Translations under genes and position numbers: made by a program
Assembly: GCF_003334335.1 (NCBI RefSeq)
Contig: NZ_QOWQ01000013.1
DNA length: 64,000 nucleotides
Origin: Escherichia coli
Lineage (GTDB): Bacteria; Pseudomonadota; Gammaproteobacteria; Enterobacterales; Enterobacteriaceae
Direction: 5' to 3' (one strand)
In this document: positions 24,241-26,432 of the stretch, piece after piece
How the letters are laid out: every line of letters begins with the position of its first letter
Position numbering within the stretch: position 1 is the stretch's first letter
The notes under the pieces: generated by a model
What the model was told of the DNA's origin: nothing
What the model saw: only the letters and a program-made list of their open reading frames with translations
Databases searched by the model: none

Positions 24241-25392
24241 ATGTCACTTGTCACCGATCTACCCGCCATTTTCGATCAGTTCTCTGAAGCTCGCCAGAAA
24301 GGCTTTCTCACCGTCATGGATCTCAAGGAGCGCGGCATTCCGCTGGTTGGCACCTACTGCACCTTTATGCCGCAAGAGATCCCGATGGCAGCCGGTGCAG
24401 TTGTGGTTTCGCTCTGTTCCACCTCTGATGAAACCATTGAAGAAGCCGAGAAAGATCTGCCGCGCAACCTCTGCCCGCTGATTAAAAGCAGCTACGGCTT
24501 CGGCAAAACCGATAAATGCCCCTACTTCTACTTTTCTGATCTGGTGGTCGGTGAAACCACCTGCGACGGCAAAAAGAAAATGTATGAATACATGGCGGAG
24601 TTTAAGCCTGTTCATGTGATGCAGTTACCGAACAGCGTTAAGGACGATGCCTCGCGTGCATTGTGGAAAGCCGAGATGCTGCGCTTGCAAAAAACGGTAG
24701 AAGAACGTTTTGGGCACGAGATTAGCGAAGATGCTCTGCGCGATGCCATTGCGCTGAAAAACCGCGAACGTCGCGCACTGGCTAATTTTTATCATCTTGG
24801 GCAGTTAAATCCTCCGGCGCTTAGCGGCAGCGACATTCTGAAAGTGGTTTACGGCGCAACCTTCCGGTTCGATAAAGAGGCGTTGATCAATGAACTGGAT
24901 GCAATGACCGCCCGCGTTCGTCAGCAGTGGGAAGAAGGCCAGCGACTGGACCCGCGTCCGCGCATTTTAATCACCGGCTGCCCGATTGGCGGCGCAGCAG
25001 AAAAAGTGGTGCGCGCGATTGAAGAGAATGGCGGCTGGGTTGTCGGTTATGAAAACTGCACCGGGGCGAAAGCGACCGAGCAATGCGTGGCAGAAACGGG
25101 CGATGTCTACGACGCGCTGGCGGATAAATATCTGGCGATTGGCTGCTCCTGTGTTTCGCCGAACGATCAGCGCCTGCAAATGCTCAGCCAGATGGTTGAA
25201 GAATATCAGGTCGATGGCGTAGTTGATGTGATTTTGCAGGCGTGCCATACCTACGCGGTGGAATCGCTGGCAATTAAACGTCATGTGCGTCAGCAGCACA
25301 ACATTCCTTATATCGCTATTGAAACAGACTACTCCACCTCAGATGTCGGGCAGCTCAGCACCCGCGTCGCGGCCTTTATTGAGATGCTGTAA
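24241..25392 (+). CDS. yjiM: 2-hydroxyacyl-CoA dehydratase-like protein (HgdB/BcrB-like D-component) YjiM
   Basis: Start MSLVTDLPAIFDQ at 24241 gives 383 aa; Cys-rich, dehydratase-like. Confidence 0.85.
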   Translation: MSLVTDLPAIFDQFSEARQKGFLTVMDLKERGIPLVGTYCTFMPQEIPMAAGAVVVSLCSTSDETIEEAEKDLPRNLCPLIKSSYGFGKTDKCPYFYFSDLVVGETTCDGKKKMYEYMAEFKPVHVMQLPNSVKDDASRALWKAEMLRLQKTVEERFGHEISEDALRDAIALKNRERRALANFYHLGQLNPPALSGSDILKVVYGATFRFDKEALINELDAMTARVRQQWEEGQRLDPRPRILITGCPIGGAAEKVVRAIEENGGWVVGYENCTGAKATEQCVAETGDVYDALADKYLAIGCSCVSPNDQRLQMLSQMVEEYQVDGVVDVILQACHTYAVESLAIKRHVRQQHNIPYIAIETDYSTSDVGQLSTRVAAFIEML

Positions 25393-25395
25393 GGA

Positions 25396-26169
25396 GTGGC
25401 AGTGGCATATTCGATTGGCATTGATTCCGGCTCAACCGCCACCAAAGGGATCTTACTGGCAGACGGCGTGATTACGCGCCGTTTCCTCGTTCCAACACCC
25501 TTTCGCCCGGCAACAGCAATTACTGAAGCCTGGGAAACTCTGCGCGAAGGGTTAGAAACAACGCCGTTTCTGACGCTCACCGGCTACGGACGGCAACTGG
25601 TGGATTTTGCCGATAAACAGGTGACGGAAATCTCCTGTCACGGGCTGGGCGCACGGTTTCTTGCGCCAGCAACGCGCGGGGTAATCGACATCGGTGGTCA
25701 GGACAGCAAAGTGATTCAGCTTGATGACGACGGTAACCTGTGCGATTTCCTGATGAATGACAAATGCGCGGCGGGCACCGGGCGTTTCCTGGAGATGATC
25801 TCGCGCACGCTTGGCACCAGCGTCGAGCAACTCGACAGCATTACCGAAAATGTCACGCCGCACGCCATCACGAGTATGTGCACAGTGTTTGCAGAATCAG
25901 AAGTGATCAGCTTGCGCTCAGCGGGCGTCGCGCCAGAAGCGATTCTCGCCGGAGTGATTAACGCGATGGCGCGGCGGAGTGCCAATTTCATTGCTCGTCT
26001 CTCCTGTGAAGCGCCGATTCTGTTTACTGGTGGCGTTAGTCATTGCCAGACGTTTGCCCGGATGCTGGAATCTCATCTGGGAATGCCGGTAAATACCCAT
26101 CCTGATGCGCAATTTGCTGGCGCAATTGGCGCAGCGGTAATTGGTCAACGAGTGAGAAAACGCCGATGA
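25396..26169 (+). CDS. yjiL: BadF/BadG/BcrA/BcrD-type ATPase, activator of 2-hydroxyacyl-CoA dehydratase, YjiL
   Basis: 257-aa ORF, GTG start; N-terminal ASKHA-fold motif IGIDSGSTATKG; CxxC-type cysteines. Confidence 0.85.
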   Translation: MAVAYSIGIDSGSTATKGILLADGVITRRFLVPTPFRPATAITEAWETLREGLETTPFLTLTGYGRQLVDFADKQVTEISCHGLGARFLAPATRGVIDIGGQDSKVIQLDDDGNLCDFLMNDKCAAGTGRFLEMISRTLGTSVEQLDSITENVTPHAITSMCTVFAESEVISLRSAGVAPEAILAGVINAMARRSANFIARLSCEAPILFTGGVSHCQTFARMLESHLGMPVNTHPDAQFAGAIGAAVIGQRVRKRR

Positions 26170-26432
26170 AAGAGTTTTTATTTTTATTTCACTCCACGGT
26201 CGGCGTCATACAAACCCGCAAGGCGTTGCAGGCAGCGGGCATGACTTTTCGCGTCAGCGATATTCCCCGTGATTTACGCGGCGGCTGCGGGTTATGCATT
26301 TGGCTGACCTGTCCCCCCGGCGAGGAAATACAATGGGTGATCCCTGGGCAAACCGAAGCGATATATTGCCAGCAGGGCAGCGACTGGCAGTGCGTGGTGC
26401 ATTACGATGCAGAAGCGTCAACCAGGCAATAA
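26166..26432 (+). CDS. DUF3343-like small protein, translationally coupled to yjiL
   Basis: 88-aa ORF overlapping the yjiL stop by ATGA; LFLFHST...CG..C motif reminiscent of the DUF3343 family. Confidence 0.6.
   Translation: MKEFLFLFHSTVGVIQTRKALQAAGMTFRVSDIPRDLRGGCGLCIWLTCPPGEEIQWVIPGQTEAIYCQQGSDWQCVVHYDAEASTRQ

What the first reader, a model, noticed from the sequence alone, without database searches (positions are those of the whole stretch)
24241..26432. yjiM-yjiL plus a translationally coupled DUF3343-like gene: orphan radical dehydratase-like module
YjiM (HgdB-like dehydratase component) and YjiL (BadF/BcrAD-type ATPase activator) are followed by an 88-aa ORF that overlaps the yjiL stop by ATGA and carries an FHST...CG..C pattern like DUF3343. 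No partner HgdA-like alpha subunit is visible nearby. The substrate and role of this putative ATP-driven iron-sulfur system are, to my knowledge, not established.
Basis: partly seen in the sequence, partly recalled or inferred. Interest (0 to 1): 0.45.

Follow-up and report, generated by a model that had tools for sequence, protein, structure and literature searches.

The report
E. coli yjiM-yjiL-ytiA reductase operon
These are three already annotated E. coli genes: an ATP-driven iron-sulfur reductase of the "double-cubane" type (YjiM and its activator YjiL) and a small cysteine carrier protein (YtiA). Gene neighbourhoods in other bacteria suggest they work in selenium handling, which would be the first physiological role proposed for this enzyme class.

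Summary
**Observation: confirmed.** Three co-directional genes lie at 24241-26432.
- yjiM is 383 aa.
- yjiL is 255 aa from the GTG at 25402.
- The third ORF is 88 aa. Its ATG overlaps the yjiL stop (ATGA), and it matches Pfam PF11823 (DUF3343, "Se/S carrier").

**Already annotated.** RefSeq calls all three yjiM, yjiL and ytiA, and at least 80% of the stretch is present in 5322 of 5426 complete E. coli genomes.

**Interpretation: partly right.**
- YjiM is not an orphan half of a dehydratase. It meets the curated model for double-cubane-cluster reductases and carries all seven motif cysteines.
- That enzyme class works as a homodimer with a YjiL-type ATPase, so no HgdA-like partner is expected. 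The literature already lists YjiM as a putative "class II" member of unknown function.

**What this analysis adds.**
- ytiA follows yjiL with a conserved start/stop overlap in 18 of 18 evaluable gammaproteobacterial loci, and it is under purifying selection.
- In 16 of 61 Firmicute loci, orthologues 56-69% identical to YjiM lie within 7 kb of a selenium-linked gene. In most of these they form tight clusters with selD, yedF, a selenocysteine-lyase-like gene, DUF3343, yqeB/yqeC and selenium-dependent xanthine dehydrogenase.

**Best reading (about 0.45 for the selenium part).** The module is an ATP-driven low-potential reductase acting on selenium carried on YtiA Cys41.

**Interest:** moderate.

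The parts
24241..25392 (+). yjiM: double-cubane-cluster protein (DCCP, short 'class II' form), 383 aa. Motif cysteines are C40, C59, C78, C108, C273, C302/C304 and C335.
   Evidence: NF040772 scores 532 bits against a cutoff of 350. Pfam HGD-D, E = 6.8e-122. PDB 6eno/7yyl, E = 4e-75. RefSeq annotates it as yjiM.
25402..26169 (+). yjiL: ASKHA-type electron-transfer ATPase ('archerase', the DCCP reductase), 255 aa from the GTG at 25402. An alternative in-frame GTG lies at 25396. Cluster cysteines are C122 and C160.
   Evidence: TIGR00241 scores 363.8 bits against a cutoff of 125.4. PF01869, E = 2.8e-77. PDB matches: 1hux 4e-52, 4eht, 7yyl_E 1e-46. Both cluster cysteines align with HgdC. Start as in RefSeq.
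25391..25396 (+). AAGGAG Shine-Dalgarno sequence for yjiL. It overlaps the yjiM stop codon (TAA 25390-25392).
   Evidence: Read directly from the sequence.
26166..26432 (+). ytiA: DUF3343 / Se_S_carrier small protein, 88 aa here and 85 aa in K-12-type strains.
   Evidence: PF11823, E = 4.3e-13. RefSeq names it ytiA / DUF3343. The AlphaFold2 model has pLDDT 90.8.
26166..26169 (+). ATGA: the ytiA start codon overlaps the yjiL stop codon, a geometry that fits translational coupling.
   Evidence: An overlap is kept in 18 of 18 gammaproteobacterial loci: 14 of 4 nt, 3 of 1 nt and 1 of 11 nt.
26286..26288 (+). TGC codon of YtiA Cys41, the only cysteine invariant across the DUF3343 family. It is the proposed persulfide or perselenide carrier site.
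   Evidence: Alignments A1 and A2. Lin et al. 2015 also note one highly conserved Cys (PMC5322559).

Best explanation
The region is a three-gene operon for a three-part, ATP-driven, low-potential reductase.

**Enzyme identity (shown by homology).**
- YjiL is a homodimeric ATPase of the "archerase" type with a [4Fe-4S] cluster bridging the two subunits. It would take an electron from ferredoxin or flavodoxin and use ATP hydrolysis to push it into YjiM.
- YjiM is a homodimeric double-cubane-cluster protein that would bind an [8Fe-9S] cluster through six of its seven motif cysteines.
- No HgdA-like subunit is needed.

**Role of YtiA (inferred).**
- YtiA is translated in step with YjiL. It is a small ferredoxin-like protein with one invariant cysteine (Cys41).
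- I infer that it carries a sulfur or selenium atom as a persulfide or perselenide.

**Physiological job (inferred from gene neighbourhoods; this is the mechanism I commit to).**
- The module handles selenium. YjiM reduces selenium held on YtiA (formally Se(0), Cys-S-Se-) to selenide, or to an equivalent activated form.
- The product feeds SelD, and through SelD selenocysteine, selenouridine and the labile selenium cofactor of molybdenum hydroxylases.
- YjiM is shorter than the crystallised enzyme at the N-terminus. This may leave room for the Cys41 loop of YtiA to reach the cluster; that point is speculation.

**Confidence by layer.**

| Claim | Confidence |
|---|---|
| The enzyme is a double-cubane protein with an archerase partner | about 0.9 |
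| YtiA is a functional third partner | about 0.75 |
| The module is linked to selenium | about 0.45 |
| The reaction is Se(0) to selenide | about 0.2 |
For: **Family identity.**
- NF040772 scores 532 bits (cutoff 350) and TIGR00241 scores 364 (cutoff 125).
- PDB matches are 6eno/7yyl at 4e-75 for YjiM, and 1hux, 4eht and 7yyl_E for YjiL with both cluster cysteines aligned.
- The seven-Cys positions have the same spacing as the crystallised enzyme, apart from a 3-residue difference between C273 and C302.
- The homodimeric two-component mechanism is published (PMC7317905, PMC9351452).

**YtiA as a partner.**
- It follows yjiL directly in 18 of 18 evaluable gammaproteobacterial loci: Escherichia, Citrobacter, Klebsiella, Kosakonia, Cedecea, Hafnia, Morganella and Aeromonas. 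The outer flanks differ between these loci.
- The same triad occurs with YtiA at only 35-38% identity.
- dN/dS is 0.09-0.28.

**Selenium link.**
1. Elsewhere, DUF3343 genes sit directly after YedE, TusA/YedF or a cysteine-desulfurase / selenocysteine-lyase gene. The nearest relatives of YtiA outside the triad follow YedE.
2. Among 61 Firmicute loci whose YjiM orthologue is 56-69% identical, the commonest specific neighbours are:
   - YedF (TIGR03527), 11 loci
   - SclA-like / TIGR01977, 9-10 loci
   - DUF3343, 9 loci
   - SelD, 7 loci
   - a MocA/YgfJ-like gene, 7 loci
   - YqeB, 5 loci

   Sixteen loci have at least one of these, in at least six different gene orders. Examples:
   - yjiM-yjiL-selD-yedF-DUF3343-yqeC-mocA-yqeB-xdhC in Clostridium intestinale
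   - yjiM-yjiL-[Se-dependent XDH, 1550 bits]-mocA-sclA-selD-yedF in an Enterococcus
   - DUF3343-sclA-yedF-yjiL-yjiM in Lachnospiraceae
3. Haft and Gwadz report that 955 of 970 proteins of this family are in SelD-containing genomes (bioRxiv 10.1101/2022.07.06.499078).
4. Table 1 of Lin et al. [quoted passage not shown]

**No competing context.** No CoA-transferase or CoA-ligase recurs next to these genes.

**Expression.** yjiM rises 2.76-fold together with anaerobic genes as oxygen runs out in E. coli O157:H7 (PMC2241611).
Against: - **No direct evidence.** There is no biochemical or genetic evidence for any substrate.
- **Most Firmicute loci show nothing.** 45 of 61 have no selenium gene within 7 kb.
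- **Gammaproteobacteria give only one clue.** The sole selenium-related hint is YtiA itself; the 64-kb window has no selD, yedF or yedE.
- **DUF3343 is not selenium-specific.** It also occurs in genomes without SelD and may carry sulfur (PMC5322559).
- **No formal control.** The enrichment estimate rests on my own ORF calling and clustering.
  - It has no matched control gene set.
  - It covers only the 80 best of at least 583 matching loci.
  - It counts related genomes as independent.
- **Co-occurrence could reflect a shared anaerobic lifestyle.** This applies to the SelD correlation.
- **A different substrate has been suggested.** Jeoung et al. proposed a CoA ester or another large substrate for YjiM.
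- **The redox argument is unverified.** That reduction of Se(0) to selenide needs a very low potential is recalled from memory, and I could not confirm it in the library.
Confidence: 0.45

Rival explanations
1. YjiM/YjiL is a radical enzyme acting on a CoA ester or another organic substrate. [quoted passage not shown] In this reading YtiA is only an accessory and has nothing to do with selenium.
For: - YjiM belongs to Pfam HGD-D. Its nearest characterised relatives after the double-cubane protein are BzdN, MbdN and HadC.
- YjiM lacks the N-terminal extension that narrows the substrate channel in the crystallised enzyme. Its residue 26 aligns with residue 62 of that chain, and PMC7317905 makes the same point.
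- A PLP aminotransferase gene lies within 7 kb in 8 Firmicute and 2-3 gammaproteobacterial loci.
Against: - Scores on the dehydratase and benzoyl-CoA reductase models are far below their cutoffs: 95.8 of 700, 79 of 454 and 59 of 421.
- There is no second HGD-D subunit in the window.
- No CoA-transferase, CoA-ligase or acyl-CoA dehydrogenase recurs among the neighbours in 80 loci.
- It does not explain why a Se/S carrier gene is coupled to yjiL in every gammaproteobacterial locus. It also does not explain the clustering with selD, yedF and sclA.
Confidence: 0.15
2. YtiA is a maturation factor rather than a substrate carrier. It would deliver the bridging sulfide of the [8Fe-9S] cluster. If the cluster is selenium-bridged, as Haft and Gwadz raised as a formal possibility, it would deliver selenide instead. 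The true substrate of YjiM would then be something else.
For: - The cluster has one extra bridging sulfide between two [4Fe-4S] cubanes (PMC7317905).
- The strong co-occurrence with SelD led Haft and Gwadz to mention a selenium-bridged cluster.
- DUF3343 genes often sit beside cysteine-desulfurase-like genes.
- Three longer double-cubane paralogues in Firmicutes are also followed directly by a DUF3343 gene.
Against: - According to PMC7317905, the Carboxydothermus enzyme was overproduced in E. coli and the crystal structure showed the [8Fe-9S] cluster. No dedicated carrier is mentioned in the passages I read.
- Most Firmicute loci have no DUF3343 gene nearby.
- It does not explain the clustering with YedF, a LysR_Se regulator or YqeB/YqeC.
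Confidence: 0.15
3. The module handles sulfur, not selenium. It would reduce a persulfide, polysulfide or S(0) carried on YtiA to sulfide, or serve another sulfur-relay step.
For: - The DUF3343 family has no selenium-specific branch and occurs in genomes without SelD (PMC5322559).
- Its usual partners (TusA, DsrE-like proteins, YedE/Sulf_transp, cysteine desulfurases) are sulfur-relay families as well.
- No selenium gene lies next to the triad in Gammaproteobacteria.
Against: - The neighbours in Firmicutes pass selenium-specific curated models, not generic sulfur ones: SelD, YedF TIGR03527, YqeB, YqeC, LysR_Sec_metab and Se-dependent XDH.
- 955 of 970 family members lie in SelD-containing genomes.
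- From general chemistry, reducing a persulfide does not need an ATP-boosted electron.
Confidence: 0.15
4. The 88-aa ORF is a non-functional or chance reading frame downstream of yjiL.
For: - It is short.
- Its C-terminal third varies between strains and genera.
- NCBIfam has no model for it.
Against: - Pfam match at E = 4.3e-13.
- Twenty invariant positions across 25 enterobacterial sequences.
- dN/dS of 0.09-0.28.
- A conserved overlap with yjiL in 18 of 18 loci.
- A confident fold prediction, pLDDT 90.8.
Confidence: 0.02

Closest known systems
DCCP / DCCP-R of Carboxydothermus hydrogenoformans (CHY_0487/CHY_0488; PDB 6ENO, 7YYL)
   Same: - It is the same protein family: NF040772, about 39% identity, all seven motif cysteines.
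- The same kind of partner ATPase is encoded immediately downstream.
- The expected mechanism is the same. A homodimeric [4Fe-4S] ATPase injects ATP-energised electrons into a homodimeric [8Fe-9S] protein.
   Different: - YjiM is 38 residues shorter than the 421-residue crystallised chain. About 36 of these are missing at the N-terminus, where the crystallised enzyme has an extension that narrows its substrate channels, hence "class II" in PMC7317905.
- A third gene, ytiA, is coupled to the ATPase gene.
- The published system is described as two-component, and I found no paper discussing a DUF3343 partner.
- The physiological substrate is unknown for both.
2-hydroxyacyl-CoA dehydratases with their activators (HgdAB/HgdC, HadBC/HadI)
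   Same: - Same Pfam families: HGD-D and BcrAD_BadFG.
- YjiL is most similar in sequence to the activators HgdC and HadI (1hux 4e-52, 4eht 7.5e-52).
   Different: - Those enzymes are heterodimers of two HGD-D subunits, each with a three-cysteine [4Fe-4S] site. They act on CoA esters supplied by a CoA-transferase.
- Here there is one HGD-D gene with the seven-Cys motif and no CoA-transferase nearby.
- Scores on the HadB and HadC models are far below their cutoffs.
Selenium-trafficking gene set YedE / YedF / DUF3343 / selenocysteine lyase / SelD (Lin et al. 2015), and the selenium-dependent molybdenum hydroxylase maturation set YqeB / YqeC (Haft and Self 2008)
   Same: - YtiA is a DUF3343 member with the family's single conserved cysteine.
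- Orthologues of yjiM and yjiL are embedded in these gene sets in several Firmicutes.
   Different: - In E. coli and other Gammaproteobacteria the triad stands apart from selD, yedE/yedF and the yqeB/yqeC region.
- The text of those papers does not count the double-cubane pair as part of the selenium gene set. It appears only in a STRING table in Lin et al..
Nitrogenase Fe protein / MoFe protein
   Same: By analogy only. In both, an ATP-hydrolysing dimer with a bridging [4Fe-4S] cluster drives electrons into a complex Fe-S cluster that reduces difficult small molecules (PMC7317905).
   Different: The folds are unrelated: ASKHA rather than MinD-type ATPase, and HGD-D rather than NifDK. There is no homology.

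Membership tests
Double-cubane-cluster protein (NCBIfam NF040772; 'cluster IV' of Jeoung et al.) | Whole-protein score above the curated equivalog cutoff. | tested here: met
   532 bits against a cutoff of 350, covering the full model, positions 1-372.
Double-cubane-cluster protein (NCBIfam NF040772; 'cluster IV' of Jeoung et al.) | Seven-cysteine motif: six cluster ligands plus the nearby Cys94 equivalent. | tested here: met
   C40, C59, C78, C108, C273, C302/C304 and C335 align with chain residues 76, 95, 114, 144, 309, 341/343 and 374 of 6ENO, with matching spacing. The motif as printed in the paper matches neither YjiM nor the 6ENO chain literally, so its spacer counts are loose.
Double-cubane-cluster protein (NCBIfam NF040772; 'cluster IV' of Jeoung et al.) | Adjacent gene for an archerase-type ATPase (DCCP-R). 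| tested here: met
   yjiL starts 10 nt after the yjiM stop codon. It scores 364 bits on TIGR00241 and matches 7yyl_E at 1.3e-46.
Double-cubane-cluster protein (NCBIfam NF040772; 'cluster IV' of Jeoung et al.) | Actually binds an [8Fe-9S] cluster, is homodimeric, and is reduced only by its ATPase plus ATP. | not testable with these tools
   This needs anaerobic purification, spectroscopy and a crystal or cryo-EM structure.
2-hydroxyacyl-CoA dehydratase (HgdAB / HadBC) | Two paralogous HGD-D subunits (alpha and beta) encoded together. | tested here: not met
   There is only one HGD-D gene in the 64-kb window. The same single-gene arrangement holds in 77 of the 80 related loci; the other 3 carry a second double-cubane gene, not a HadB/HgdA-type subunit.
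2-hydroxyacyl-CoA dehydratase (HgdAB / HadBC) | Score above the cutoff on the HadB or HadC equivalog models. | tested here: not met
   HadC 95.8 of 700 and HadB 19.9 of 750.
2-hydroxyacyl-CoA dehydratase (HgdAB / HadBC) | Operon context with a CoA-transferase or other acyl-CoA enzymes. | tested here: not met
   No such family recurs among the neighbours in 80 loci.
Class I benzoyl-CoA reductase (BcrABCD / BzdNOPQ) | Four subunits, with scores above the cutoffs on the subunit equivalog models. | tested here: not met
   BzdN 79 of 454, BcrC 59 of 421 and BzdQ 160 of 380. There is one HGD-D gene and one ATPase gene.
Archerase / acyl-CoA dehydratase activase (TIGR00241, PF01869) | Model score above the cutoff, plus the two cysteines that bridge the [4Fe-4S] cluster in the dimer. 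| tested here: met
   363.8 bits against a cutoff of 125.4. C122 and C160 align with the NDKCAAGTGRF and CTVFAESEV motifs of HgdC. PMC9351452 names the equivalent C115 and C152 in DCCP-R.
DUF3343 / Se_S_carrier (PF11823) | Pfam match, plus the single conserved cysteine, in a protein of about 80-100 aa. | tested here: met
   E = 4.3e-13 over residues 4-59. C41 is invariant in 32 diverse members.
DUF3343 / Se_S_carrier (PF11823) | Actually carries sulfur or selenium on the conserved cysteine. | not testable with these tools
Selenium utilisation gene set (SelD-linked) | Conserved gene-neighbourhood link to selD, yedF, sclA or yqeBC. | tested here: inconclusive
   Seen in 16 of 61 Firmicute loci in several gene orders, but in none of 19 gammaproteobacterial loci apart from ytiA itself. 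No matched control set was run.

The most novel reading that the evidence does not exclude
YjiM, YjiL and YtiA are a missing ATP-driven reductase of bacterial selenium metabolism. The module would take selenium bound to the YtiA cysteine, for example the Se(0) left by a selenocysteine lyase or by selenite/thiol chemistry. It would reduce that selenium at the double-cubane cluster to selenide for SelD. [quoted passage not shown] It would also give the first physiological function for an [8Fe-9S] enzyme, in E. coli itself.
Probability: 0.25. Interest if true: 0.8.

Novelty: new variant of a known kind. Interest (0 to 1): 0.5.

Why it matters
**What is known.** Double-cubane-cluster proteins are a recently discovered, nitrogenase-like class of ATP-driven reductases. 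Their natural substrate is unknown (PMC7317905, PMC9351452). The genes and family memberships here are already known and annotated, so the bare finding is ordinary.

**What would matter.**
- E. coli carries a member of this class in nearly every strain, so the open question can be tested in the easiest genetic system there is.
- The analysis adds a concrete handle:
  - a Se/S-carrier gene is coupled to the ATPase gene throughout Gammaproteobacteria;
  - close orthologues sit inside selenium-mobilisation and selenium-cofactor operons in Firmicutes.

**If the link holds.**
- It would assign a role to three E. coli y-genes.
- It would fill a gap in how selenium reaches SelD.
- It would explain a published but unexplained co-occurrence between double-cubane proteins and SelD.

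Tried and rejected
- **Literal motif search.** The published pattern CX19CX18-19CX29CX166-170CX32-34CX32C does not match YjiM. It does not match the crystallised enzyme either. I therefore relied on the residue-by-residue alignment and did not count this as a failure.
- **Regulatory signals.** There is no sigma-70-like promoter upstream of yjiM, no terminator-like site above the shuffle expectation, and no Rfam family match. No riboswitch or known RNA is involved.
- **A guess that failed.** I expected E. faecalis V583 EF2571/EF2572 to be the double-cubane pair, by synteny with locus L055. They are annotated as an XdhC-type accessory factor and a molybdenum transporter (PMC7701990), so I dropped the idea.
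- **Purine-catabolism literature.** Papers on selenium-dependent purine breakdown do not mention a double-cubane protein or an activase. This gives no support for a direct role in purine ring reduction.
- **Redox potential.** I looked for a citable Se(0)/HSe- potential and found none. That argument stays marked as recalled from memory.
- **Close-homologue search with YjiM.** It returned only relatives at 86-99% identity. I needed the genome scan with an alignment to reach other phyla.
- **Papers not available.** The 2018 PNAS structure paper and the 2023 J Bacteriol version of Haft and Gwadz are not held. I used the 2020 and 2022 papers and the preprint instead.

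
Full report
**1. What is in the sequence**

The window is an Escherichia coli-type chromosome segment with the gene order rpn-like(-), mdtM, yjiN, yjiM, yjiL, ytiA, a pentapeptide-repeat gene, yjiK-like, yjiJ, iatD.

The finding's coordinates match three co-directional ORFs.
- **yjiM:** ATG 24241 to TAA 25392, 383 aa.
- **yjiL:** ends at 26169. The mechanical ORF begins at GTG 25396. RefSeq uses GTG 25402 (255 aa), which lies 5 nt after an AAGGAG that overlaps the yjiM stop codon.
- **88-aa ORF:** 26166-26432. Its ATG overlaps the yjiL TGA as ATGA.

The family matches are clear.
- YjiM matches Pfam HGD-D at E = 6.8e-122.
- YjiL matches BcrAD_BadFG at E = 2.8e-77.
- The small protein matches PF11823, the "putative Se/S carrier protein-like" family formerly called DUF3343, at E = 4.3e-13.

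It is also not new.
- RefSeq annotates the three genes as yjiM (double-cubane-cluster-containing anaerobic reductase), yjiL (putative 2-hydroxyacyl-CoA dehydratase activator) and ytiA (DUF3343 domain-containing protein).
- 5387 of 5426 complete E. coli genomes match the stretch, and 5322 hold at least 80% of it.

**2. What YjiM and YjiL are**

YjiM is a double-cubane-cluster protein, not a dehydratase subunit.
- It scores 532 bits on NCBIfam NF040772, the curated equivalog model for this family (cutoff 350).
- It falls far below the cutoffs of the dehydratase and benzoyl-CoA reductase subunit models: HadC 95.8 of 700, BzdN 79 of 454, BcrC 59 of 421, HadB 19.9 of 750.
- Its best solved relative is the double-cubane-cluster protein (DCCP) of Carboxydothermus hydrogenoformans (6ENO, 7YYL; E = 4e-75, about 39% identity).
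- All seven cysteines of the family motif are aligned: C40, C59, C78, C108, C273, C302/C304 and C335. They correspond to chain residues 76, 95, 114, 144, 309, 341/343 and 374, and the spacing is the same except for three residues between the fifth and sixth positions.
- The motif as printed in the literature matches neither protein literally, so its spacer counts are approximate.

YjiL is the matching ATPase.
- It scores 363.8 bits on TIGR00241 (cutoff 125.4).
- It matches the activators HgdC (1hux) and HadI (4eht) and the DCCP reductase (7yyl_E).
- Both cysteines that hold the bridging [4Fe-4S] cluster are conserved. PMC9351452 names their equivalents in DCCP-R.

The published work explains the missing partner.
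- It shows a homodimeric DCCP holding an [8Fe-9S] cluster, made of two [4Fe-4S] cubanes joined by one sulfide.
- A homodimeric ATPase is the only agent able to reduce that cluster, and it needs ATP to do so.
- The enzyme reduces acetylene, hydrazine and azide in vitro. Its physiological function is unknown (PMC7317905, PMC9351452).
- The same review names E. coli YjiM and YjiL as a putative "class II" system that lacks the N-terminal channel-closing part. This fits the alignment, where YjiM residue 26 meets residue 62 of the crystallised chain.

The absence of an HgdA-like alpha subunit is therefore what this family predicts. I confirmed that no other HGD-D homologue exists in the 64-kb window.

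**3. Is the small ORF real?**

Yes, on several independent grounds.
- **Conservation.** Homologues occur across Enterobacteriaceae at 56-98% identity. In 25 sequences the N-terminal 45 residues are almost invariant, including C41.
- **Family-wide pattern.** A profile search of 1.84 billion representative proteins reached distant family members. Across 32 of them only F8, P34 and C41 are invariant, with G42 and Y67 nearly so. The family has a single conserved cysteine, as Lin et al. also noted.
- **Selection.** dN/dS against orthologues from other genera is 0.09-0.28 where synonymous sites are not saturated.
- **Fold.** The AlphaFold2 model is confident (pLDDT 90.8) and shows a small alpha/beta fold. 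Its only resemblance to solved structures is to generic ferredoxin-like folds.
- **Strain variation.** The C-terminal third varies. In most E. coli strains, DNA similarity to this window stops at about 26376, inside the 3' end of ytiA, and the protein is 85 rather than 88 aa. This goes with the presence or absence of the neighbouring pentapeptide-repeat gene.

**4. The three genes travel together**

I scanned one genome per species (GTDB) with an alignment of YjiM-type proteins. This returned 80 loci: 19 from Gammaproteobacteria and 61 from Firmicutes and relatives, the latter 56-69% identical to YjiM over its whole length. I called ORFs in each locus and searched them with a DUF3343 profile and with YjiL and YjiM.

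- **Gammaproteobacteria.**
  - A DUF3343 gene follows yjiL directly in 18 of 19 loci. The nineteenth is cut off at that point.
  - The start/stop overlap is kept in all 18: 4 nt in 14, 1 nt in 3 and 11 nt in 1.
  - The outer flanks differ between Enterobacteriaceae, Hafnia, Morganella and Aeromonas.
- **More distant triads.** Two metagenomic contigs show the same triad with YtiA at only 35-38% identity, in yet other contexts.

The triad therefore behaves as a unit.

**5. What the neighbours say**

*DUF3343 genes outside the triad.*
- They sit directly after a YedE-type membrane protein, a TusA/YedF-type protein, or a cysteine-desulfurase / selenocysteine-lyase-type gene.
- In a neighbour-joining tree, the closest relatives of YtiA outside the triad are those that follow YedE.
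- Lin et al. proposed DUF3343 as a chaperone for selenium (or sulfur) trafficking on this kind of evidence (PMC5322559).

*The 61 Firmicute loci.* I clustered all neighbouring ORFs and named the recurrent clusters with NCBIfam. Apart from a generic ABC ATPase family, the most frequent neighbours are:

| Neighbour | Loci |
|---|---|
| YedF "selenium metabolism protein" (TIGR03527) | 11 |
| Cysteine-desulfurase family TIGR01977, close to selenocysteine lyase SclA | 9-10 |
| DUF3343 | 9 |
| PLP aminotransferase | 8 |
| SelD | 7 |
| MocA/YgfJ-like protein | 7 |
| MATE transporter | 6-7 |
| YqeB | 5 |

Further neighbours in these loci pass the models for YqeC, an XdhC-type maturation factor, selenium-dependent xanthine dehydrogenase (1550 bits) and the selenium-associated LysR regulator.

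The clusters are tight and co-directional, and the gene orders differ:
- yjiM-yjiL-selD-yedF-DUF3343-yqeC-mocA-yqeB-xdhC (Clostridium intestinale, 68% identical YjiM)
- yqeB-yedF-selD-yjiM-yjiL-mocA-xdh subunits (L049; L051 and L078 keep the yedF-selD-yjiM-yjiL-mocA core)
- yjiM-yjiL-SeXDH-mocA-sclA-selD-yedF (an Enterococcus)
- yjiM-yjiL-lysR_Se-yedF-selD-sclA-DUF3343
- DUF3343-sclA-yedF-yjiL-yjiM, with unrelated flanks (two Lachnospiraceae)

Sixteen of the 61 loci have at least one of these genes within 7 kb. Two points put that number in context.
- **Rough enrichment.** selD is normally single-copy in a genome of a few megabases, so about 0.5% of random 15-kb windows should contain it. Seven of 61 is roughly a twenty-fold excess. 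This is my estimate, not a controlled test.
- **The other 45 loci.** They show miscellaneous neighbours such as ClpA/ClpS, a chemoreceptor, a transporter and LptD. No rival theme appears, and no CoA-transferase or CoA-ligase recurs.

Three longer double-cubane paralogues in Firmicutes are also followed directly by a DUF3343 gene.

*Published hints.* Two agree with this picture.
- Haft and Gwadz found that 955 of 970 proteins of this family lie in SelD-containing genomes, and said the family was not known to be connected to selenium.

I found no paper that treats DUF3343 as a partner of the double-cubane system, or places yjiML in the selenium gene set.

**6. Most likely mechanism**

- **Shown by homology.** YjiL2 is an ATP-driven electron injector and YjiM2 is a double-cubane reductase.
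- **Inferred from conserved coupling.** YtiA is a functional third partner that uses Cys41.
- **Inferred from neighbourhoods and co-occurrence.** The system works in selenium mobilisation, close to SelD, the selenocysteine-lyase-like enzyme and YedF.
  - Some clusters contain only the trafficking genes and no molybdenum hydroxylase.
  - The link therefore looks closer to selenium supply than to purine catabolism itself.
- **My specific proposal.** YjiM reduces selenium carried on YtiA (formally Se(0) as Cys-S-Se-) to selenide for SelD.
- **Why an ATP-boosted electron would fit.** As I recall, the Se(0)/HSe- couple is very negative. I could not verify a value in the library, so this stays an argument from memory.
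- **Consistent expression.** E. coli O157:H7 raises yjiM 2.76-fold together with nrf, frd and nrdDG as oxygen runs out (PMC2241611).

**7. Rivals**

- A CoA-ester or other organic substrate, as suggested for class II by Jeoung et al. No neighbour supports it, and it leaves ytiA unexplained.
- YtiA as a donor of the bridging sulfide or selenide during cluster assembly.
- A sulfur-only role, since DUF3343 is not selenium-specific.
- A chance ORF, which the sequence evidence excludes.

**8. Weak points**

- There is no experiment.
- 45 of 61 Firmicute loci, and all gammaproteobacterial loci, lack selenium genes other than ytiA.
- I examined only the 80 best of at least 583 matching loci.
- There was no matched control set and no correction for relatedness.

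**9. Verdict**

- The genes and their families are known and annotated.
- The "orphan dehydratase" reading is superseded by the double-cubane assignment.
- Two things are not in the literature I could search:
  - the consistent coupling of a Se/S carrier gene to the ATPase gene;
  - the embedding of close orthologues in selenium operons.
- Together they turn an open question, what double-cubane enzymes do, into a testable one in E. coli.
- I rate the finding as a new variant of a known kind, of moderate interest.

Noticed in passing
window 26745-28883 (+): A 712-aa pentapeptide-repeat protein lies between ytiA and the yjiK-like gene, after an AT-rich spacer. RefSeq calls it 'pentapeptide repeat-containing protein', or 'T3SS effector pentapeptide repeat protein EspX6' in some strains. 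K-12-type strains lack it. Its C-terminus has about nine tandem copies of a D-S-x-E/D-K-Q-A-x unit.
   Followed up: partly
window about 26376-26432: In most E. coli genomes, DNA similarity to this window stops at about 26376, inside the 3' end of ytiA. As a result the last ~18 residues of YtiA differ between strains (88 aa here, 85 aa in K-12-type strains). The strains whose match runs through (H1, H2) carry the pentapeptide-repeat gene next door.
   Followed up: partly
window 20149-21105 (-): This Rpn-family recombination-promoting nuclease gene (318 aa) is intact here and in the closest genome. In a K-12-like laboratory strain it is annotated as a pseudogene with an internal stop.
   Followed up: no
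window 31436-36676 (+): A 1746-aa ORF corresponds to the inverse autotransporter IatD in the closest genome. The K-12-like strain has kptA, yjiH, yjiG and iadA at this position instead.
   Followed up: no
L068 3732-5373 (-), L073 5-1541 (+), L083 463-2006 (-): Three Firmicute loci hold a second, longer double-cubane paralogue (424-453 aa in the two that are complete; the two tested, L068 and L083, score 487-515 bits on NF040772). Each is followed directly by its own DUF3343 gene. These DUF3343 proteins form a separate clade and end in a conserved R-D-x-Y-C motif.
   Followed up: partly
L012 4932-6255 and L013 4926-6252: These metagenomic contigs (organisms not identified) pair a YedE-type membrane protein gene (Pfam Sulf_transp) with an overlapping or abutting DUF3343 gene. 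These DUF3343 proteins are the nearest relatives of YtiA outside the triad.
   Followed up: partly
L014-L093 (YjiM orthologues): YjiM is unusually conserved across phyla: 56-69% identity between E. coli and Clostridia, Lachnospiraceae and Enterococcus, at the same 383-aa length. It is only about 39% identical to the crystallised Carboxydothermus enzyme. This suggests one conserved function and probably horizontal transfer.
   Followed up: no
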